DNA from: the human T2T-CHM13v2.0 reference genome, Homo sapiens
Length of the DNA: 64,000 nucleotides
Assembly: GCF_009914755.1 (NCBI RefSeq)
Contig: NC_060926.1
Reading direction: 5' to 3' (one strand)
Within the stretch, counting starts at the first letter, position 1. The number at the start of each line of letters is the position of its first letter. This document shows positions 2,336 through 60,924 of the stretch, in pieces. The notes below the pieces were generated by a model that was not told the DNA's origin, did no database searches, and was given only the letters and a program-made list of their open reading frames with translations. A program made the translations under genes and the position numbers.

Positions 2336-3074
2336 TTGCTGTATGTGTTTATTTTCACATCTATGCTAGCTATTGATCACAATTTCCAAGCCATTTAGAG
2401 GGAGAAATGCCCTCAGGCCGCTCTTCTGTGTGGCCTACTGCAGACAGCCAAATTACCCCACTGACAGGCCCCTTCCTGCACCCACCCCCACCCACCCAAT
2501 ACCTTATTCTTCACACAGAATGCGACAAGGGCCAAAGGAGAGGGGGACTGGAACATAGGAGTGTGACTAGTACATAGTAGTAGCTCGATAACTGTTGTTG
2601 AATTAATGAATTAACAAATGAACAAATTATGTTTCTAGTACACTATGACTGCTAGTAAGGTCAGAGCTCAATTTGCTATTCCATTGCATCAGCTAGGATA
2701 GTGTCTGATATACCTTATCTCTATTCCTAGTTGTTTTTGAATTTTTATTATCCTGCTTATGGATGCTTTAATATCATAAGCTCCTTCCCATGTTTGGACT
2801 ATGAAACTTAAGAAAGATGTTTCAAGTTCTTGGTACACAAGAAAGGAGAGCTCCTCTCGGGACCATAGGCCAGTTCCAAATGCGCCTTCTTCTAATCATA
2901 GCCCACAGAACTTACTTCTCTTTCCCTTCTTGGGTAGGAGCACTGGAAAGGACATCTTCAATCACTATGGATGTTGACTTATTCTGACAGTGCAGAGCAG
3001 TGTGCCGTAAAATCTGGGGCAGACATTTCCCCCAACTTCCAATATAGAAGAGAAAAAATTACTAAGAAAATCCT

Positions 3075-3389
<315 letters not shown>

Positions 3390-5971: not shown

Positions 5972-6323
<352 letters not shown>

Positions 6324-8954: not shown

Positions 8955-9055
8955 AGTTTTACTATGTGCCGGGCACTGTGCTTCAAACTCAACATGCACT
9001 ATTTCATTTGGTCCCAACAACCCAGTGAGGTAGTTGTATTATCTTAATTTTGTAC
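8955..9055 (-). mobile_element. MIR
   Basis: tactatgtgccgggcactgtgct...caacaacccagtgaggtag. Confidence 0.7.
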
Positions 9056-9058
9056 ATG

Positions 9059-9668
<610 letters not shown>

Positions 9669-10503: not shown

Positions 10504-10830
<327 letters not shown>

Positions 10831-11130: not shown

Positions 11131-11556
<426 letters not shown>

Positions 11557-11619
11557 CCTCTTTTCATTTCATATTCTATCTGTCTCTGTCTGTCTAAACT
11601 GATACAATTCCTTTAAAAA

Positions 11620-22889: not shown

Positions 22890-25423
22890 TAGAAGAAATA
22901 CTTAAGGGTGTCCTAAACCTGGAAGTGAAAGGTTATCTACCATTGTGAAAACATGTGGAAGTATAAAGCTCACTGGTAAAGCAAACACACAAATGAGGAA
23001 GAGGAAGGACTCAAATGTTACCGCTAAAGAAAAACACTAAACCACAATGATAAACAATAAGAGATGAAGAAAGGAACAAAGAATATATAAAACATTCAGA
23101 ACACAATTAACAGTATAACAGGAGCATATCAATAATACCCTCAAATGTAAGTGGATTAAATTTTCCACTTAAAACATAGAGGCTGGCTGAATGAATTACA
23201 AAACATTACCTAACTATATGCTGCCTACAAGAAACTCACTTCACCTGTAAAGACATGTATAGACTGTAAGTAAAGGGATGGAAAAATATATTCCATGCAA
23301 ACAGAAACCAAAAGCAAGCAAGAATAGCTATACTTACATAAAACAGACTTTAAGTCAAAACAGTAAAAAGACACAAAGAAAAGTTATATAATGACAAAGG
23401 AATCACTTCAGCAAGAGGATATAACAATTCTTAATATATATGCACCCAACACTGGAGCACCCAGATTATAAAGCAGATATTACTAGACCTAAATAAAGAG
23501 ATAGACTTCCTATACAATAATAGTTGGGAATTCAGTATTCCACTCATCGTCTAATGCAACTAGCATTAGACAGATCATCCAAACAGAAAATCAACAACGA
23601 GACATTGGGTTTAAACTGGACTTTATACCAAATGGGCTTTATAGACATTTATACAACATTTTACCCAACAGCTCCAGAGTGCACATTCTTCTCATCATTA
23701 TATTGAACATTCTGCAGGATAGAACATATGTTAGGCCAGAAAACAAATCTCAATAAATTTTTAAGAATAGCAATCCTATCAGTATCTTCTCAGATCACAA
23801 TTAAACTAGAAATCAATAGAAATCAACAATAATTTGAAAACTATACAAATATATGGAAATTAAACAACGTGCTCCTGAATGACCATTGACTAAATGAAGA
23901 AATTAACATGAAAATCAAAAAATATCTTAAATGAAAATGGAAACACAACATAACAAAATCCTCAGGATACAGCAAAAGCAGTGCTAAGAGAAGTTTATAG
24001 CATTCAATGCCTACATCAAAAAAGTAGAAAGATTTCAAATAAATAATCTAGCAATGCACCTCAAGGAACTTGAAAAGCAAGAACAAACCGAACCTAAAAT
24101 TACTAAAAGGAAAGAAACAATAAAGATCAAATCAGAACTAAAGAATATAGAGATTATCAAAGAAAACAATAAAAAGGATCAGTGAAATGAAAAGTTGGCT
24201 TTTTTAACATATAAAGTTGATAAATGGCTATAACCAAAAATTGCTATAACCAAAGGGGAGAGGGGGAGAGAGAGAGAGAGAGAGACCCAAATAAAATCAG
24301 AAATGAGAAAGGAGATATTACAACTGATACCACAGAAATACAAAAGATATCAGAGGCTATTATGAACAACTGTATTCGAACAAACTTTAAAACCTTAAGG
24401 AAATGCATAAATTCTGGGGCATACAACCTACCAAGATTGAATCAGGAAGAAATAGAAAACCTGAATAGGCCAATAACAAGTAATGAGATTGAATCAGTAA
24501 TAAAAAGTCTCCCAACAAAGAAAAGCCCAGGATTAATGGCTTCACTGCCTAATTCTACCAAACGTATAAAGAAGGACTCACTCCTCAAACCATTCCAAAA
24601 AATGCAAGAGGAGGGAATTCTCCCCGACTTGTTCTATGAGGCCAGCATTACCCTGATAACAAAACCAGTCAAGAACAAAACAACAGCAACAAAAACTACA
24701 GGCCAATATTTCTGATGAACATAGGTGCAAAGGTTCTCAACAAAATTCTAACAAACTGAATTCTACAGCACATCAAAATGATAATACACCATGATCAAGT
24801 GGGATTTAAAACAGGGATGCAAAGATTGCTCAATATATGCAAATCAACAAACGTGATTCATCACACCAACAGAATGAAGGACAAAAATCATATGACCATT
24901 TCAATAGGCACAGAAAAAGCATTAGATAAAATTCAGCACCCATTCATAATAAAAACTCTCAGCAAACTTGCTCTAGAAGCAACATACATCAACATAATAA
25001 AGGCCATATATGACAAGCCCATGTAACATCATACTGAGTGGGGGCAAAGCTGAAATCCTTTCCTGTAAGAACTAGAATAAGACAAGGTTGCCTACTTTCA
25101 CCACTCCTATTCAACATAGGAACAATCAGGCAAGAGGAAGAATTAAAAGCATCCAGATTGGAAAAGAGAAAGTTACATTGTTCTTTGCAGACAAAAATAA
25201 TTTTATATTTAGAAAAACCAAAAGACTCCACCAAAAAACTCATTAAACTGTTAAATTCAGTAAAGTTGCAGGATACAAAATCAACATACAAAATCAGTAG
25301 CATTTCTATACACCAATAATGAACTAGCTGAAAGAGAAATCAAATAAGTAATCTCATTTGCAATAGCTGCAAAGAAAATATCTAGACATAAATTTAACAA
25401 AGGAAGTGAAAGACCTGTATTAG

Positions 25424-25945
<522 letters not shown>

Positions 25946-27107: not shown

Positions 27108-27338
27108 TGTGTAAATTAGTACAACCTCTATGGAAAACAGTATGGAGGTTCCTTAAAGAACTAAAAGTAGATCTACCATTCAATCCAGCAGTCCCGCTAC
27201 TGGGTATCTACCCAACGGAAAAGAAATCATATGAAAAAGGCACATGCACACCTGTGTTTATAGCAGCACAGTTCCAAATTGCAAAGATATGGAACCAATC
27301 TAAGTGCCCACCAATCAATGAGCAGATAAAGAAAATGT

Positions 27339-27650
27339 GGCCGGGCGTGGTCGCTCACACCTGTAATCCCAGCACTTTGGGAGACCGAGGCGGGTGGATC
27401 ACGAGGTCAGGTGTTCAAGACCACCCTGGCCAAGATGGTGAAACCCTGTCTCTACTAAAAATACAAAAATTTAGCCAGGTGTGGTTGTGGGCACCTGTAA
27501 TCCCAGCTACTCGGGAAGCTGAGGCAGAGAATTGCTTGAACCCGGGAGGTGGAGGTTGCAGTGAGCCAAGATTGTGCCACTGCACTCCAGCCTGGGCGAC
27601 AGAGCGAGACGCCATCTCAAAAACAAAAAAAAAAAAGAAAAGAAAAGAAA
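27339..27650 (+). mobile_element. AluS in L1
   Basis: Full dimer, TSD aaagaaaatgt. Confidence 0.95.
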
Positions 27651-28198
27651 AAAGAAAATGTAGTATATATACACCATGGCATACTACTCAGCCATAAAAA
27701 GGAATGAAATAATGTTTTTTGCAGCAACTTGGATTGAGTTGGAGGCCATTTTTTAAGTGAACTAACTCAGGAATGGAAAACCAAATATGGTTTATTCTCA
27801 CTTATAAGTGGGAACTAAACTATGAGAATGCAAAGATACAGAGTGATATAATGGACTTCAGGGACTCAGGAGGAGAGGTTGGGGTGGGGGTGATAGATAA
27901 AAGACTGCATATTGGCCACAATATATACTGCTAGGGTGATGGGTGTGCTAAAATCTCAGAGTTCACCACTGTAGAATTCAACCATGTAACCAAAAACCAC
28001 TTGTACCCCCAAAGCTATTCAAATAATCATTTAAAAAAAAGTTTTTTAGCTTCAAACCCAAGGAAAAGTTGCATACCATTTACTTACACTTGTATGCCCT
28101 TTATAATAATACCAATTATTACATCTGTCCCATTTATTATATACCAAATAATTGGCATACCAATTATTTGCATCTACACTTTTCTTTCTCTCTCTTTC

Positions 28199-28205
28199 TG
28201 TGTGT

Positions 28206-28246
<41 letters not shown>
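28199..28246. repeat. (TG)n microsatellite
   Basis: Direct reading. Confidence 0.95.
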
Positions 28247-28247
<1 letters not shown>

Positions 28248-28261
28248 ATATAATACTTCTC

Positions 28262-28545
28262 GGCTAGGCGCAGTGGCTCACGCCTGTAATCCTAGCACTT
28301 TGGGAGGCCGAGGTGGGTGGATTGCCTGAGCTCAGGAGTTCGAAACCAGCCTGGGCAACATAGTGAAACCCCATCTCTACTGAAAATACAAAAACTTAGC
28401 CTGGCATGGTGGCGGATGCCTGTAATCCCAGCTACTCAGGAGGCTGAGGCCAGAGAATCACTTGAACCCAGGAGGTGGAGTTTGCAGTGAGCCAAGATTG
28501 TGCCACTGTACTCCAGAAGTCTCAAAAAAAAAAAAAAAAAAAACC
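28262..28545 (+). mobile_element. AluS with small 3' deletion
   Basis: Dimer, TSD acttctc. Confidence 0.92.
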
Positions 28546-28589
28546 CAAAAAACTTCTCTATATCTCTTTATATCTTTTAAATCTATTTT

Positions 28590-38765: not shown

Positions 38766-38860
38766 ATTTTTTTTCTTTTTTTCTTAGACACAGGGTCTCA
38801 CTCTGTTGCCCAGGCTGGAGTGCAGTGGTGATCATAACTCAGTGCAGCCTCAAACTCCTG
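38766..38860 (-). mobile_element. AluJ 3' fragment
   Basis: gggtctcactctgttgcccaggctggagtgcagtgg. Confidence 0.85.
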
Positions 38861-39184
38861 AACTGCTCATATATTTAAGAAACACTTCGTGGCAGAAGAT
38901 TATGATACTCTTGCTTATTTATTGGCTTAAGGATTAAGGATCCCCAAAGTCTCAGACTTCAGTAAGTAAGCCTATGTCCTACATGATGTCTGTAAACTCC
39001 ACTCCCTCTTAGACTTACATCCTAGAACAAAGACATAGGGGGCTTCTTCAACTGTGGCCATACATTTTTGTCCCAGACCCAGCTTCATTGTGTTAAAAGT
39101 CTTGGTGTTATGTGAAGAGTGTCTTTATCCATCCTTCCGTCATTCAGTGTAGAGTTCTAGGATTTTTGAAATAGGATAGATTCA

Positions 39185-43334: not shown

Positions 43335-43685
43335 CATTCATTCATTCAGTAGACATTTAGTGTCTGTATGTTCAGTCGGAGTTCCTGGGGTAAGAATTAG
43401 ACATTCAAAGACAACTAAGATAGAGTTTATACCTTTGAGAAGCTGACTGTTTTGTGAGGGAGATAGACAAGGGAGGAGGAAAATCCAGTAGTTAGTTAAA
43501 CATTATGATAGAGGTATGCACTGGATGGTGTGTGAGCACAGAAATCTTCCTAGTAACCCAGATTGCCTAGGTTCAAATCCTGGCTTTGCCACTTGTTGAC
43601 TATGGGTCTTGGACAAGTTACTTGACCTTTCTGTGCCTCATTTTTCATACAGCCCTTAGAACAGTACTTGATACACAATAAATAT
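43335..43685. mobile_element. L2 3' end (-) followed by MIR (+)
   Basis: tcattcattcattcag...; ggttcaaatcctggctttgccactt...ggacaagttacttgacc. Confidence 0.65.
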
Positions 43686-43687
43686 TC

Positions 43688-44123
<436 letters not shown>

Positions 44124-45230: not shown

Positions 45231-45339
45231 AGCTTGTCTAAAGGAAAATCAAGACATGGGGCAGCAGAAAGGGGAATGCAGGGTTATACCTGTCTGTGTT
45301 ATAGGTAGCATCTTCATTGCAAAGTGAAAGGCTATTTAA

Positions 45340-46000
<661 letters not shown>

Positions 46001-46028
46001 CTCTTTTTTTTTTTTAAAGGATTAATCC

Positions 46029-46160
46029 GCTAGGCACAGTGGCTCACGCCTGTAATCCTAGCACTTTGGGAGGCCGAAGCAGGAGGATCCCTTGAACCCA
46101 GAAATTTGAGACCAGCCTGGCAAGATAATGAGACCCCGTCTCTACAAAAAAAATTTACAA
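46029..46160 (+). mobile_element. Alu left monomer (FLAM/AluJ)
   Basis: gctaggcacagtggctcacgcc...accccgtctctacaaaa. Confidence 0.85.
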
Positions 46161-47250
46161 AATGATACAAGTGAGGATGATGTAAGTTTATTTCAGGGAG
46201 AAAATGCACAGGAACTACCCACTCCCTGCTGGAATGCAACAGCATGCAAAAGTTTTATCTTTTTTACTTTCACCTATGTGGTTTGCTTTAACTCTTTTCA
46301 CTGAGGAAATGCCTTGTTTATTAACTTTTCTAGACATAGGATTCATTCATCATTAATGATAATGTGGTTTCCAAGTATTATTTGTCAGAGAAATGTCCAC
46401 TAGAAATGATAATGGTACTAACTGTGTCCTCTTTCTGCCATCACTTTAATCTTACTCATATCTCTGTGGGAGGATGGAGCTGAAAGATAAACCTTTGGTA
46501 CATTTTCTAGTTTTGTTTCTGGCTTTTTTTTTTCCTATTTAAAAGTGTTAGTACATTCTCTTATTTGAGGAAATAAAACTAACACATGAAACAAATAGGA
46601 AGCAAAAATAAACGGTGCTTAAGAAGGTAGTTAATTTTATGGTACAATAAGGGCAGGCCATTGGTTGGTTTCTTTGTTTAGAGGGCAGTCCTTTTTTGAG
46701 GAAGGGGAATATTAGTGGAATGGTCTGGTGATGTTGCTCCTCATCTTGACCTGAGGGAATGTCTTGAACAAGTCAATTAACTTATTTCTTCCTTCTTTCC
46801 TCCCTCCTTCCCTTCTTTCCTTCCTCCCTTCTTCTATGTGTAAAATAGAAACAGTAACAACAGTAATAATCTCTTTAGAGAAGCTTGAGAAAAAAAGGTT
46901 TCTAAATAAATAGAAGAATGGTTAGCACCATATTTCTGAGTCCTTGTCCATTTTCTTGTTACCGGGAGGTGATCACTTTTTGTGGAGAAAGTATTTTTAA
47001 GTCACTTTTTTTTATTTTCTACATTTTTCTAATTTCATGTTGCTGTTTTTAAAATATAAGGAATAGACAAAGAAGGAAGTTTAAGATTAACCATTGCTCT
47101 CTGCTCTGTATCAATTTAGGTTGGTCTCCACTCCCCACTGCGCATGTCAGTCAGTTTAAAATATCTGTTATCAGGACCCTGATTGGCATTAAAGGAAAAC
47201 TTACATAATGAGTTTCACCCAGGGATGATCAACTGCAATACTATTGTGAG

Positions 47251-54991: not shown

Positions 54992-56497
54992 TTTTAAAAG
55001 TTTTCCCCATTGTCTTATTCACAAGTGATCAATTACTGGGCAGGGCACAGGTATTACTATTTTGACCCTAAAAATAAATAGGAAGGCTGACTGTTCTAAA
55101 GTTGATGATGCTATTTCAGATCTTTTCACACAGATGTCACTTGCCCTACAATATTGTTTTGTCATGCCACAACATGTGTTTGTGTAACCGCACATGCATG
55201 TGTACGTGGCTTGTAAATCTGTGGGGTAAATTAGATGGCGCTAAAAAGTAATTGAGGATTACAAATTATCTCTACCGGCTGTTGAATATTTTATGTCAAT
55301 TAAACATTTGTAAAAACCAAGTATAGTATTATGATCTACTCATAACTATTAGAAGACTGGCACATCTCCATACAGCAAGAGCCATTGCTAAGGCTACTGT
55401 ACTACTCTGGCATGAATCATAATAAATTGGGATCCCCCTGGACATAATGAACAGTAATATAATTTTGTAGTTATCCTCCTAGCATGATGAAGCAGCAAGC
55501 CAAATTGAGTTTCTAGATAAATTTTGACATATGGGTCTTATTCCTAAAGAAAAAGAGCTATTGTTGCTTTGGCTTTGTTCCAGAATTCTGCAGAAATCCA
55601 CATGGTAGCTTATTGTTGTATTACAAAAAGGTACTACAAGTATTTTTTTATGAAAAAGAATAAATTGCTAAGTTCAATTAGTCCTTTGGGGCAGAATTTG
55701 GAATTTCTTTTCAGTCAGGCTGCTGGGTCGTATGTGAACTATTGTTTGACTCACACAGGGGCTGTCCTAAAGGCCTGTGAGCCATAAGGCCACCGTGGGG
55801 GCTTCTAGTTGATGGTGGAAGGATCAAGCAGCCCTCTTTGCCACAGCAGCAAAAAATGATGTTGACATCATTTAAAAAAAAAATTAGCCATAGGAAGGAG
55901 GTTAAGAAGTTGTGGCAGAATTGAAACAAATCTAGGCCTCTCAACTGACAAGCTGAGAACCCTGCTTGACATTTATGAGTGGATGCGTTTGAGGAATTAT
56001 GTAAGAATAGTAAGTTAAAGGATGCTTTTAATTTAAAAAATTAAGATAACCTGAAAACATACCTGTAAAAACATTTCAGTTGACACAGTCTCTTATGCTT
56101 ATAACAAGGATTACTGTTAATGTGTTTTTGCGGAGTTGGGCTCTGATCTGTAAATATTTCTCAGGGAGATAAGAGTCTATGGTTAAACAGTCGTAGTAGT
56201 AGTAGCAGAATTTGGGTGTCATTGTATAGCCAAATTCAGAAGCTTGGGGGAAAAGAATAGCTACCATAGGAACCAGTATTTCAGAAGCAAGTTCTGCTTG
56301 TGAGAGTTATCAGTTGACCAAGGGATTCCTGTGTAGGTTTGTAAAGAGTGTCAGATCTGGCATTCTCAGTATGGAATTACTGGCATGATGCAATGGAGGA
56401 ACAGGAATTTTTCTGCAGCTCTTTCAGTAGTATTGGTTTGGTGTTGGGTTATCCAAATAATGCTCAGATTGTCCTAATTAACATTAATTCATCCCCT

Positions 56498-56845
56498 CTG
56501 TTGGGCTCATGTGACATATGCAACCCGACCATCAGTCAGTGGCGTATTAAAATGCTCTCCACAGGACCACAGAGCAGTGGGTGATCTCTGCATGGACGTG
56601 ATCTTTGTTGAGCAGGAATACTCATATTTCTGCCCTAAGCACAGAGCAACCGGCTATCAACTGGGATAGAAAAATTATGTTCATTCAGGAGACTACTGAA
56701 ACATCTTGCTTCTCTCCCATGTCAATCCTTTGTAATAGAGTAAGGGAAAAGTACATACACTTTTGAGTAACAGTTTCCATACAAATGCTCTGATGAAAGT
56801 AGGGTCCCATTTGGAGGAAGCTCAGTTCAGGGCTCAGCTTGTTTT
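56498..56845 (+). repeat. Inverted duplication, arm A (probable donor)
   Basis: Reverse complement of 57446-57798, about 88-90% identity by eye. Confidence 0.95.
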
Positions 56846-57097
56846 CTGGAAGCAAAAGACTGCTATTAGACAGAGACAGACATGGGAAGGATGAGAATTG
56901 AAATAAGATAAAAAGAGAGGATTTTCCTTGTCAGGTTTCTTCTGCAGTTATGTCTTGTCCTGTCACGTCCTGCTAGCACAACTTTTGGCAGAATCCAAAA
57001 TTTGGGAGCCAAACTAGACATTAACAATGTTTCTTCAACAGCTCAGCCATAGAAGCTGATTTCAAAGTTAACAGTAACTGCTCTCTTTGGATCGAGA

Positions 57098-58000
57098 GTC
57101 ATTCATTCATTCAGCAGTTATTTATCGAGTGCTTACTTAGCACTGGGGAAACTGGTGAATGAGGTAAAATGCTACTCCTGTTCTTATTTACAAGTAAGTA
57201 CTGGGGACCAAGGTTAATTGTTTACTTGCAGTTATGATAAGGGTCGCTCTTAGAGCTTATAATAAGGAGCTCTAACTTTGCCAGGGGCCAGGGTGGGGGT
57301 GGGTGATCAAAGCATGCAACCTTGAGGAAGTAACAGTTGAGCATAAATCTGAAGGATGCACTGGAGAGCGAGATGAAGGAGTAGGGCAAAGTGTTCTAAA
57401 CAATGGGAAGAGCATAGGCAAAGTCCTGAAATGAGCAAAACGAGCAAAACAAGCTGAGCCTGAATTGAGCTTCCTCCAAATGGGACCCTACTTTCATCAG
57501 TGCATTTGCTTGGAAACTGTTACTCAAAAGTTTATGTGTGTTGTGTCTTTTGCCTTAGTCTATTACAAGAACTTACATAGGAGAGAAGCAAGATGTTTCC
57601 AGACCCTCCTGAATGAACATAATTTTTCAATCACAGTTGGTAGCTGTTGCTCTGAGCTTAGGGCAGAAATATGAGTATTCCTGCTCAGCAAACATCATGT
57701 CCATGCAGAGGTCACCCACAGCTCTGTGGTCCTGTGGAGAGCATTTTAATATGCCACTGACTGATGGCTGGACTGGATATGTCACATAAGCCTGACAGGT
57801 AGCAAGGAGATTGGTTTTAGAGGAACTGAAGGTCTAAAAAGGCCACCCTGGCTGAAGCAGGTCAGCATAACAGGAGAGGAAGGAGAAGGGGCCAGACTGT
57901 GGGTCCATGAGGGCACCTCATGGACATGGCAGGGGTTTTTGCCTTTATCCTAAAACCAATAGGAAGACATTGAAAGTACAAAGCTGGGGAAGTGACATGT
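57098..58000 (-). mobile_element. L2 interrupted by arm B
   Basis: cattcattcattcagc...gggaagagcataggcaaagtcctga [insert] agaggaactgaa...ggggccagac...tttatcctaaaaccaataggaagacattgaa. Confidence 0.8.
57446..57798 (-). repeat. Inverted duplication, arm B (inserted copy)
   Basis: See arm A; sits inside a collinear L2. Confidence 0.95.
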
Positions 58001-60924
58001 GCAGCCCCTGCTTACAGAGGGCACAAAAGACTAAGGTTAGAATAGGGTGTGGGTTCTGAGAGGCCCTGTGGAGGCTAGTGCGGAAGCCCAGACCACAGAA
58101 CAGGAACGAGGGAGATGGCAGTGGAAGAGAAGTGGAAGCATGCAAGCTACATTTCCAAGTTACAAGGGTCAAGTCTTGGCTTAGAAGCAATGGTGGTGGT
58201 TGAAATGTCAGTCTCTAGGGCAGTGTCAGAATTCCACCTGATGGCTCTGGCCATCACATCTCAGTTTCTGGATTGTTCGGGTTAATGCTAGACAGGTAGA
58301 GCCCCAAACTAAGTATGTGCTCTGAGAGACTCTGCCTCATGAATAAAAATCATGCTGTCCTGTGATTTTTATTCATGGAACAATTGTACCTAGAGACAAC
58401 TCAATAGGAAAACTATTAATAACTGGTGATAATATCATCTCACTTCTTCAAAATAAATGTTTTTCATTTTCAAAAGTTCTAAGTTCAGTTACTTGCAATA
58501 TTTCTGCTTACATGGTAAAGGTCTATAAATCAAGATGCAAATATCATCGGCTTCTTACAGGGTATTATACGAATGGCGATTTTCTAGGAGTTATTTCACT
58601 AAATTTGCATATGTAATCCAATGGAATATATTCATTGCAAATGATTCTGAAAATCATTTTCTTTTTTTATTTTAAAAATGAGTTTTTGTTTAATAACCTT
58701 ACATTCCCAATCTGTGTACTGTTACTATTGTCATTCTCCTTCAGTAGTGCTGTGAAATCTCTTCCAACTCTCAGATTCCATGATTTTCCTTTGTCCCTGC
58801 CTCTCTTATTATCTTTCATTGCATCTCTTCTCTCAGTGTCCTGTCTTTCTCTCTTTGTGGAGGTAGTAGCTGGCATGATAGATGGAAGTTAGAATGCTGA
58901 GGAAGGGTAGTTATCAAGGGAAGCTTGGGCCCTAGTCATCGCCAATCCTCTTTCCTCTATTTCCTCTGTGCATTAGCTTCAAGTGCAGTCATTACTCATT
59001 TAGTCCTCAAATAAAATGCTCTTTGTTGCAATGACAATTTTTTTCTAGTATAAGGCAAAATGGCATATCAGTCTGATGATGTGGATTTTATAGCAACCGG
59101 CAGATTTTATTTGTGTAAGGAGTTTTTATAGTTGTTGGTTACCTTTTTTTTAAGTTGCCATTTGGATCAAGGAGGATTTTATTTCTTAACTAGGATTATT
59201 CCTTTATCGGATATTAACTTAGCCTTTTTTCTCTAAATACCAAATTCATAGAGATGCTACATAGTTAATTTTTTTCTTTGTAACTAGATTATCCCCATAT
59301 CAGGTATTTCATAAAGCCAGGATAAATGTATTTAACAGAAAATATCCATCTTATAAGTAATGTTTCCCCCAAATACAATGAGGTCCATTTAAATGAATGT
59401 CTGAAATAAAAATAATCCTAATGATAGATCTAATGCACTTTGTATCAGACCCATTGAGTTTCTTTAAACTCTATTCAATAAATGCCTGATTAATAAATAA
59501 TCCTGTTAAATGAATAAAACCCCAGTGTGCCAAACGGAGACATACAAAGCAATCATGATCAGACTTGTTATGGGAGAATGATAGATGAATAAATCTACTG
59601 TGCAATTAATTTATGACTGAACTATGATGAAATCCCAGTGGCAATACTAAATCTGTTAGAGGAATAGATTTATCATCTTCTTTCAAACAATTACATTCCA
59701 GGAACTTTACAAAAATACTATTATCTGAATCTTATCATAATAGAGATATCTGTTCATTTACATGGGGAAGAATTCCTTCTGTGCCGTCAGAGCTAAATTA
59801 GTGTTTATTATTTTTGATGCTAACCAAAACAGAAACAATATAGGACAGAAACTACTAATGTGGTTAGCTATTCTTATCTGCTTCTGTTTCTTCAAACTTG
59901 ATTAAAATTGCCTAATTTTTAGACAGTTTTTTTGTTTGAATAATTTTACTTTTTAAAAGATGAAAAGCAAACGAATAAAAAACAGGTTATAGGCTATTTT
60001 GAAAGCAATCTGTGTTACTTCATAATGTGGTTACATGTAGGTTATGAAGGCACAAATTTGGGGACCATGTTTTAAGAAGATCATTGGGGATTGGTAGTAT
60101 TTCAGGTTATTGTTACATATTTTAGCTTCAAAAGACAGTCGACTGTATTTTAGTGCTGTCGTTCTTTTAGACAGGCACTTATTGATACCAAAAAACACCA
60201 CGAAAAGTAAAAAGGAAAACCCAAACCACAAGAAACATTTTGATTTAAAGGTTAGATAGTCTGAATTCATGAGAACTTAGATTCAGAGCATGGCAAGGTT
60301 AAAAGAAATTTTATTAGGATCAAGACACAAACCATGTTTAATGCAGTCTTTTTGTTTTGGGGGAACTAGAGCTGATATTTTAAATCTAGTCGTTTTTACC
60401 AATGTAAGGGAATTTAAGAGATAAAATTTGAATAGAAAGGTAAGATTTGTATAGTGATTACAAAGATGTGACCTTTAACAGAGGGTTTTGTTGTGTTTGT
60501 TTTCCACATAAAAGAATGAAGAATTTGTGAGGGTGAGGTAAAAGAGAAGGGGTCTCCTTAAAACTTGAGAGAAGGAAAGAATTTGTCCCATTGTAGCAAT
60601 ATTTGAAAACAGGTTTTATTAAGGTTTTAATATGTGTTGAAGTAAATAATTATGCAAATTGAACTAGAAACTTCTTAGTTTAAATCTAGTCTGCTATTTA
60701 CAGTGTTAGTAGCTGGACATCATACTTTTTTAAATTAATGTAATATTGATAAATAGCAATCCTGTGTATTCTCTTATTTCTCAGACTTAATAACAAAGAC
60801 TTTATAAATCCACATATGTAGTGGGTTTCAGTTGTTTGCACGTTATTCATGACCAATATTATGTACATAGCATTGTTCTAAGGCCTTCTTTGATCTGATC
60901 TTGGGTATAAAGAAACAAAAACAA

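What the first reader, a model, noticed from the sequence alone, without database searches (positions are those of the whole stretch)
56498..57798. ~350-bp inverted duplication of apparently unique DNA, pasted into an L2: candidate long RNA hairpin
Seen: 56498-56845 is the reverse complement of 57446-57798 (about 88-90% by eye). It includes perfect runs over 30 bp, e.g. tattaaaatgctctccacaggaccacagagc and ctgatgaaagtagggtcccatttggaggaagctca. The spacer is about 600 bp. Arm B splits an otherwise collinear L2, so B is the derived copy. It has no polyA tail; the left junction shows a gagcaaaac x2 stutter and agcaa occurs on both sides. Inference: a locally templated (template-switch or polymerase-theta-like) insertion rather than retrotransposition. 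If transcribed, either strand folds into a ~350-bp non-Alu duplex. Such a duplex could be a substrate for ADAR, Dicer/Drosha or MDA5/PKR, or affect splicing. As DNA it is a substrate for inversion of the spacer.
Basis: partly seen in the sequence, partly recalled or inferred. Interest (0 to 1): 0.8.

Follow-up and report, generated by a model that had tools for sequence, protein, structure and literature searches.

The report
Old local inverted duplication in CAMKMT intron
A 345-base piece of single-copy intron DNA was copied backwards into an old repeat 600 bases downstream tens of millions of years ago; the two copies could pair as RNA but show no sign of being kept for that purpose.

Summary
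Window 56498-56845 and 57446-57798 are reverse complements: 345 aligned positions, 36 mismatches and 4 indels (89.6% identity), with a 600-bp spacer. In the whole T2T genome each arm finds only itself and its partner. Two repeat controls of equal length gave 3763 and 5901 candidates. That excludes a multi-copy family about 80% or more identical to the arms. It does not exclude that the source DNA is a fossil of an old, rare repeat, because the search misses ancient repeats.

With arm B removed in silico, one profile alignment spans the junction (50.7 bits, E 2.6e-18). So arm B is the derived copy. It has no poly-A tail and a 9-nt stutter at its left junction.

The best reading is a local DNA-templated inverted duplication (template switch), roughly 25-50 My old. 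The differences look neutral: 11 G:U against 10 A:C, 15 transversions, no shared CpG. A long RNA hairpin forms in silico (-722.8 kcal/mol), but the same window holds many Alu-sized inverted pairs. Function is unproven and interest is low to moderate.

The parts
56498..56845 (+). Arm A, the source copy (348 bp). It lies in DNA with no detected repeat homology.
   Evidence: It has no hit to the L2-like profiles and no Pfam signal in 7 stop-to-stop frames. No target-site duplication is seen at its ends.
56846..57445 (.). Spacer, 600 bp. Its right part is the 5' portion of an ancient L2-like repeat.
57025..57445 (+). Left part of the ancient interspersed repeat (L2-like), running up to arm B.
   Evidence: Profile matches at 57025-57145, 57079-57427 and 57094-57205. 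The 28-nt motif at 57102-57129 has 121 genome hits against 0 for the reversed control.
57429..57454 (+). Left junction stutter: a 9-nt unit in 2.9 copies that overlaps the first bases of arm B.
   Evidence: TRF and the sequence. In the profile alignment these bases are unaligned insert states with low posterior.
57446..57798 (-). Arm B, the derived reverse-complement copy (353 bp), inserted into the L2-like repeat.
57799..58161 (+). Right part of the same L2-like repeat, collinear with the left part once arm B is taken out.
   Evidence: Profile matches at 57847-58161 (E 5.3e-5) and 57873-58000 (E 0.062). With arm B removed, a single alignment spans the junction.

Best explanation
This is a fossil of one local, DNA-templated inverted duplication. 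During replication or break repair in an ancestral primate germ line, a growing DNA end inside an old L2-like repeat left its template. It re-primed about 600 bp upstream on the opposite strand, copied about 345 bp of single-copy intron DNA (arm A) in reverse-complement orientation, and returned to nearly the same point in the L2-like repeat. In the four-point template-switch notation this is a 3-2-1-4 event, at a scale more typical of FoSTeS/MMBIR-type switching. The left junction keeps traces of aborted priming: a 9-nt unit in about three copies, and the hexamer GAGCAA twice on the left and again, with one extra T, on the right. Since then the two arms have diverged by about 0.10-0.11 substitutions per site. 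That puts the event very roughly 25-50 My ago, and the pattern looks neutral. CAMKMT pre-mRNA carries both arms in one intron, so an imperfect duplex of about 320 bp can form, comparable to the inverted Alu pairs in the same intron. Shown here: the repeat, its two-copy status, the derived state of arm B, the absence of poly-A, the stutter, and the neutral-looking pattern. Inferred: the template-switch mechanism, the age, and any RNA pairing in vivo.
For: The inverted repeat is real. Each arm finds only 2 first-look candidates in the 3.1-Gb assembly (the latter at E<=10). Equal-length control queries found 3763 candidates (the scored matches 78-91% identical) and 5901 candidates (95-96%). The 28-nt motif in the spacer has 121 genome hits against 0 for the reversed control. 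Profiles built from 29 other loci match the window on both sides of arm B with consistent profile coordinates. After in-silico removal of arm B, the L009-seeded profile gives one alignment, positions 877-1439, at 50.7 bits and E 2.6e-18, against 36.4 and -1.6 bits for the two separate pieces. The L020-seeded profile also gives a hit that crosses the junction (E 3.9e-6). The other 2 of the 4 profiles do not reach the junction. There is no poly-A or poly-T at the arm ends. The L2-like pieces left and right of arm B have the same orientation, so the spacer has not been left inverted. Neutral pattern: 21 transitions and 15 transversions; 11 G:U, 10 A:C and 15 other in the + strand RNA; 4 CpG in arm A, 0 in arm B, none shared; 4 indels including one of 8 nt. 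The four-point model, and the statement that type 3-2-1-4 creates an inverted repeat, come from passages of PMC5453318.
Against: No outgroup genome was available, so there is no empty site, no direct date and no polarity for the differences. The name L2 and the consensus behind it are recalled, not tested against Dfam or Repbase. The profile alignment right at the junction has low posterior probability, so the exact ancestral target, and whether GAGCAA is a true duplication, are uncertain. Published short template switches are far shorter: the expected copied length was set to 10 nt in PMC7954356. In PMC5453318, orderings where point 4 precedes point 1 were not observed, whereas a target duplication here would imply just that. 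Perfect runs of 30 nt or more are somewhat more frequent than uniform scatter predicts: 3 against 0.89 expected, P 0.027 with indels counted once. Some arm-to-arm conversion or mutation clustering is therefore possible, and the age could be underestimated. An RNA-templated insertion from the same intron cannot be excluded.
Confidence: 0.75

Rival explanations
1. Two independent insertions, in opposite orientation, of one low-copy transposable element about 350 bp long (a solo LTR, MITE or SINE-like unit).
For: Both arms share the same two end points, as full-length copies of a mobile unit would. The genome search misses ancient repeats: the L2-like piece gave only 3 candidates and the right flank only itself.
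Against: Two copies that are 87-90% alike would belong to a family whose other members are about equally alike. The search finds such members in thousands for the control repeats but finds none for the arms. Arm A has no flanking target-site duplication, and the arms lack a consistent TG..CA or other terminal signature at the inner end. No transposon protein domain is present. The arms profile finds nothing in 29 other loci plus the rest of the window (best E 3.2).
Confidence: 0.05
2. An RNA-templated insertion: a fragment of CAMKMT intron RNA, or an antisense transcript, was reverse transcribed and captured at a double-strand break in the L2-like repeat. This would be a templated sequence insertion without L1 hallmarks.
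For: The source lies in a transcribed intron of the same gene (hub table). The insertion has sharp ends and no large deletion of the target.
Against: There is no poly-A tail. The 600-bp distance and the junction stutter with short shared bases are what DNA polymerase template switching predicts. Nothing here specifically calls for an RNA intermediate.
Confidence: 0.1
3. One composite DNA transposon with terminal inverted repeats of about 350 bp, spanning 56498-57798.
For: The overall shape is two long inverted ends around a 600-bp core.
Against: The ancient repeat in the core continues outside arm B, so the core is not cargo of such an element. No target-site duplication flanks 56498 and 57798. 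No other copy exists in the genome.
Confidence: 0.02
4. The inverted repeat is maintained as a functional long hairpin RNA: an ADAR, Dicer or sensor substrate, or a splicing element of CAMKMT.
For: It lies in the sense strand of a transcribed intron (hub table). The predicted fold pairs 319 of 348 arm nucleotides at -722.8 kcal/mol. A paper argues that some expressed, stable inverted duplicates are functional (PMC5398296, abstract).
Against: There is no bias towards pair-preserving changes (11 G:U against 10 A:C, 15 transversions, 4 indels). Rfam gives no match. No report links CAMKMT to a hairpin or to editing at this site. Many other inverted pairs lie in the same 64 kb (30 pairs of 60 nt or more within 3 kb). 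Expression, editing and small-RNA data could not be consulted.
Confidence: 0.07

Closest known systems
Template-switch mutations under the four-point model, type 3-2-1-4 (Loytynoja and Goldman 2017, PMC5453318; follow-ups PMC7954356 and PMC10710096)
   Same: A nearby stretch is copied in reverse complement into the nascent strand. This creates a new inverted repeat able to form an RNA hairpin, and the flanks stay intact (passages read).
   Different: The scale differs. The published events are tens of bases: the expected copied length was set to 10 nt in PMC7954356. Here about 345 bp was copied from 600 bp away. A possible 6-nt target duplication would put point 4 before point 1, an order not seen in that study.
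FoSTeS / MMBIR and polymerase-theta templated insertions at break junctions
   Same: Short shared bases sit at the junction, repeated aborted priming leaves a stutter, and the inserted DNA is templated from nearby sequence. I know these hallmarks from general knowledge. Of the polymerase-theta papers I saw only the search listing (PMC4912351, PMC5068794, PMC2943611).
   Different: Polymerase-theta inserts are usually much shorter than 345 bp, and FoSTeS/MMBIR is mostly described for kilobase-to-megabase rearrangements (both recalled). The enzyme cannot be assigned from a junction tens of millions of years old (age estimated from recalled rates).
Genome-wide catalogues of inverted duplicates (Chen et al. 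2017, PMC5398296; Inverted Repeats Finder)
   Same: It is two reverse-complement copies with a spacer in partly non-repetitive DNA. Such elements are counted in very large numbers in the human genome (abstract and passages).
   Different: 80% of the human inverted duplicates there have arms of 35 nt or less, so this one sits in the long-arm tail. That study analysed function for intergenic ones; this one is intronic. I could not check whether this locus is in their lists.
Inverted Alu pairs in introns
   Same: These are imperfect intramolecular duplexes of about 300 bp in pre-mRNA. Several pairs with 73-89% complementarity lie in repeat-masked, Alu-sized stretches of this same window (hub masking list). 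That they are the main ADAR substrates is established knowledge.
   Different: Alu pairs arise from two independent retrotranspositions of a million-copy family. This pair arose by copying single-copy DNA and exists only here.

Membership tests
Interspersed transposable-element family (two independent insertions) | Further copies elsewhere in the genome at an identity similar to that between the two arms | tested here: not met
   Each arm yields 2 of 2 candidates, both at this locus. Controls yield 3763 and 5901 candidates. Ancient families below about 75-80% identity would be missed.
Interspersed transposable-element family (two independent insertions) | Target-site duplications and terminal hallmarks at both copies | tested here: not met
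   No duplication flanks arm A. Arm B has only a 5-6 nt imperfect match (GAGCAA / GTAGCAA) with extra bases between it and the arm.
Interspersed transposable-element family (two independent insertions) | Match to a curated repeat library (Dfam/Repbase) | not testable with these tools
   No repeat library is on hand. The hub's list of the 20 longest masked stretches (all 309 bp or more) does not include either arm (348 and 353 bp), so neither is masked as one piece.
Local template-switch inverted duplication (four-point type 3-2-1-4) | The inserted segment is the reverse complement of a nearby sequence on the same chromosome | tested here: met
   600 bp apart, 87-90% identity, E 5e-116.
Local template-switch inverted duplication (four-point type 3-2-1-4) | The insertion interrupts a previously continuous sequence, with its flanks retained | tested here: met
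   The L2-like profile alignment spans the junction once arm B is removed (50.7 bits, E 2.6e-18; a second profile gives E 3.9e-6). 2 of 4 profiles reach the junction.
Local template-switch inverted duplication (four-point type 3-2-1-4) | Short shared bases or stutter at the switch points | tested here: inconclusive
   A 9-nt unit in 2.9 copies lies at the left junction, and AAAAC is shared with the inner end of arm A. The ancestral target is inferred only from a low-confidence stretch of the profile alignment.
Local template-switch inverted duplication (four-point type 3-2-1-4) | Absence of the derived copy in an outgroup species (an empty site) | not testable with these tools
   The assembly has no relatives in the tool set (statement).
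L1-mediated retrocopy | A poly-A tail at the 3' end and target-site duplications of 7-20 bp | tested here: not met
   No A-run or T-run abuts arm B, and there is no long duplication.
DNA transposon with long terminal inverted repeats | The sequence between the arms belongs to the element and ends at the arms | tested here: not met
   The L2-like repeat of the spacer continues beyond arm B.
Structured RNA gene (miRNA or hairpin RNA) | Match to a curated RNA family | tested here: not met
   Rfam at E<=1 on 55000-59500 gives only DUF805b, at 16.3 bits and E 0.54, below its gathering score of 35.6.
Structured RNA gene (miRNA or hairpin RNA) | Substitutions biased towards keeping base pairs | tested here: not met
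   11 G:U, 10 A:C and 15 other mismatches in the + strand; 10, 11 and 15 in the - strand.
Structured RNA gene (miRNA or hairpin RNA) | Expression, processing or editing of the hairpin | not testable with these tools
   No RNA data are on hand. Literature searches on CAMKMT with 'inverted repeat' and 'RNA editing' gave nothing on this site.

The most novel reading that the evidence does not exclude
The duplication created a primate-specific, non-Alu intronic double-stranded RNA of about 320 bp. On this reading, ADAR edits it in CAMKMT pre-mRNA, and it has a measurable effect on CAMKMT splicing, on small-RNA output or on dsRNA sensing. It would then be a case of a functional hairpin born in one template-switch step at a scale about ten times that of the reported de novo miRNA cases.
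Probability: 0.05. Interest if true: 0.5.

Novelty: new member of a known kind. Interest (0 to 1): 0.22.

Why it matters
This is a clean, datable example of a mid-sized (about 345 bp) locally templated inverted duplication of single-copy DNA. The derived copy is identified by the old repeat it splits, and a junction stutter is still readable. Such cases bridge the gap between the tens-of-bases template switches described in great apes and the kilobase-scale rearrangements of genomic disorders. They also show how long hairpin-forming loci can arise without transposons. As a functional element it is unremarkable for now. The arms look neutral, and the intron already carries many inverted Alu-sized pairs with similar pairing potential.

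Tried and rejected
1. Single-sequence blastn (word 7) and nhmmer of the arms, spacer and flanks against the rest of the window and loci L004 and L005 found only the short L2-like motif. These were too insensitive, so I built profiles instead.
I replaced it with iterative nhmmer.
3. The own-genome DNA search is blind to ancient repeats. The L2-like piece gave 3 candidates and the right flank only itself. 'Two hits' therefore does not prove that the source DNA is not an old, rare repeat.
4. Rfam gave nothing above threshold.
5. Pfam on 7 stop-to-stop frames over arm A gave only chance-level hits (E 0.07-0.21, all below the curated cut-offs).
6. The gene-conversion reading of the long perfect runs depends on how events are counted. 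P is 0.005 with gap columns counted as events, 0.027 with indels counted once, and 0.90 after collapsing differences 5 nt or less apart. I do not claim conversion.
7. The CAMKMT literature has one hit with 'inverted repeat', which concerns an unrelated translocation, and three hits with 'RNA editing', none about this site judging from their listings.

Full report
**Observation.** The repeat finder reports four collinear inverted segments between 56498-56831 and 57459-57798, at 85-94% complementarity. A MAFFT alignment of arm A with the reverse complement of arm B was counted:
- 345 aligned positions and 36 mismatches (21 transitions, 15 transversions)
- four indel events of 8, 1, 1 and 1 nt
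- 89.6% identity, or 86.8% with gap columns

A BLAST-scored search of the whole assembly gives 87% identity at E 5e-116. The homology stops sharply at both ends. The arms are 56498-56845 and 57446-57798, and the spacer is exactly 600 bp.

**Copy number.** The window lies in a 3.1-Gb human T2T assembly that can be searched.
- Arm A finds 2 first-look candidates, itself and arm B. Arm B does the same even at E<=10.
- This search is blind to ancient repeats. A 406-bp piece of the old repeat in the spacer found only 3 candidates, and the right flank found only itself.
- It is not blind to families at the identity that matters here. Two control queries of 351 bp from masked repeats of the same window gave 3763 candidates (the 40 scored regions gave 79 matches, 78-91% identical) and 5901 candidates (the 40 scored regions 95-96%).

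Two independent insertions that are 87-90% alike must come from a family whose other members are about equally alike. No such members exist. The arms are therefore a two-copy, strictly local pair. The source DNA could still be a fossil of some old, rare repeat. A profile of the two arms found nothing in the rest of the window or in 29 other loci, about 150 kb in all (best E 3.2). Seven stop-to-stop frames over arm A gave no Pfam match. Neither arm appears in the hub's list of the 20 longest masked stretches, all of which are 309 bp or longer. A repeat library was not available.

**Which arm is derived.**
- The spacer carries a 28-nt motif at 57102-57129. With four wildcard positions it occurs 121 times in the genome, against 0 for the reversed control. 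It therefore belongs to an interspersed repeat.
That name was not tested against a library.
- From 29 other loci carrying the motif I built four iterative nhmmer profiles.
- The L009-seeded profile matches window 57079-57427 at profile positions 877-1225 (E 2.1e-13). It matches 57873-58000 at positions 1296-1439 (E 0.062).
- The L020-seeded profile matches 57094-57205 and 57847-58161 (E 5.3e-5).
- With arm B cut out in silico, the L009-seeded profile gives a single alignment across the junction: positions 877-1439, 50.7 bits, E 2.6e-18. The L020-seeded profile gives a hit that also crosses the junction (E 3.9e-6).
- The other two profiles stop short of the junction.

The old repeat is thus continuous and in one orientation on both sides of arm B. 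Arm B is an insertion into it and arm A is the source. This also rules out a single transposon with long terminal inverted repeats. It further shows that the spacer has not been left inverted.

**Junctions.**
- No poly-A or poly-T abuts arm B, so an L1-type retrocopy is not supported.
- At the left junction TRF finds a 9-nt unit in 2.9 copies (57429-57454). Its last copy is the beginning of arm B, and the bases AAAAC are shared with the inner end of arm A.
- The hexamer GAGCAA stands twice to the left of arm B and once more, as GTAGCAA, directly to its right.
- In the profile alignment the bases next to the junction are unaligned insert states. This fits junction filler rather than old-repeat sequence, but the posterior probabilities there are low.
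- I read this as repeated aborted priming followed by one long copying run, with return to nearly the same site. That reading is inference.

**Mechanism.** In the four-point notation for template switching, a copy made from an upstream stretch in reverse complement and placed downstream is type 3-2-1-4, which 'creates an inverted repeat' (PMC5453318, passages). There are two differences from the published events.
- Size: a follow-up study set the expected copied length to 10 nt (PMC7954356, passage).
- Order: orderings with point 4 before point 1 were not seen in PMC5453318, while a real target duplication here would imply that order.

The scale fits replication-fork or break-induced template switching better (FoSTeS/MMBIR, recalled). 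The stutter is also what polymerase-theta repair leaves; of those papers I saw only the search listing. The enzyme cannot be named from one old junction.

**Age and mode of evolution.** The Kimura two-parameter distance between the arms is 0.114, or 0.102 without CpG contexts. With recalled primate neutral rates of about 1-2.2e-9 per site per year, this gives roughly 25-50 My. Any conversion between the arms would make it look younger. The evidence on selection is as follows.
- Arm A has 4 CpG, arm B has none, and none is shared.
- In the + strand RNA the 36 mismatches make 11 G:U, 10 A:C and 15 other non-pairs. In the - strand the counts are 10, 11 and 15. There is no bias towards keeping pairs.
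- Perfect runs of 30 nt or more number 3. Against 0.53 expected this gives P 0.005 when gap columns count as events. Against 0.89 expected it gives P 0.027 with indels counted once. Against 3.8 expected it gives P 0.90 after collapsing differences 5 nt or less apart.

The differences are thus mildly clustered, but this does not establish conversion.

**RNA and DNA potential.**
- Both arms lie in one CAMKMT intron on the sense strand (hub table). The nearest annotated exon in the window is at 38806-38961.
- The + strand of 56480-57815 folds at -722.8 kcal/mol, with 319 of 348 arm A nucleotides paired to arm B and a longest uninterrupted helix of 47 pairs. The - strand folds at -683.1 kcal/mol.
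The same 64 kb holds 30 inverted pairs of 60 nt or more within 3 kb, 25 of them listed. Apart from the 3 listed pairs that make up this locus, most lie in Alu-sized masked stretches, at 72-92% complementarity (hub masking list).
- Rfam has no match.
- I found no paper on a hairpin, editing cluster or inverted repeat at this locus. The search 'CAMKMT' with 'inverted repeat' gave 1 paper, about an unrelated translocation. 'CAMKMT' with 'RNA editing' gave 3 papers, none about this site judging from their listings.
- Inverted duplicates as a class are catalogued genome-wide. 80% of the human ones have arms of 35 nt or less, and 7.8% are reported as expressed (PMC5398296, abstract and passages). 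Its supplements were not consulted, so I cannot say whether this locus is listed there.
- As a recombination substrate the pair is now poor, since the longest identical tract is 35 bp.

**Verdict.** This is a real, well-delimited, two-copy inverted duplication made by local templated copying into an old L2-like repeat. It is tens of millions of years old and shows no sign of selection. It is a new example of a known kind of event, of modest interest.

Noticed in passing
window 9055-9549 vs 10572-10827 and 11233-11597; 25384-25882 vs 27318-27736 and 28174-28556; 3040-3386 vs 5980-6295; 43677-44062 vs 45327-46166: There are several clusters of inverted pairs, 73-89% complementary over 100-180 nt and within 3 kb, in Alu-sized masked stretches of the same intron. 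They are potential intronic dsRNA of the ordinary Alu kind.
   Followed up: partly
G000:C2:10958513-10958540 and 10961067-10961094 (L017, L018): Two hits of the L2-like motif lie 2.5 kb apart on the same strand and share the same rare variant of the wildcard positions. This suggests a local tandem duplication of an L2-like copy.
   Followed up: no
G000:C17:32063455-32063482 (-) and 32067067-32067094 (+): Two identical L2-like motif hits lie in opposite orientation 3.6 kb apart. This may be another local inverted duplication involving an old repeat.
   Followed up: no
window 56520-56528, 56692-56697, 56718-56729: Differences between the arms fall in tight clusters (5 within 9 nt, 5 within 6 nt, 5 within 12 nt). 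These look like multi-nucleotide events rather than independent point changes.
   Followed up: partly
window 45400-45750: The control query behaves as one repeat unit of about 270 nt followed by the start of another. Hits cover query 1-272 and, separately, 275-350, which fits adjacent or nested Alu-like copies.
   Followed up: no
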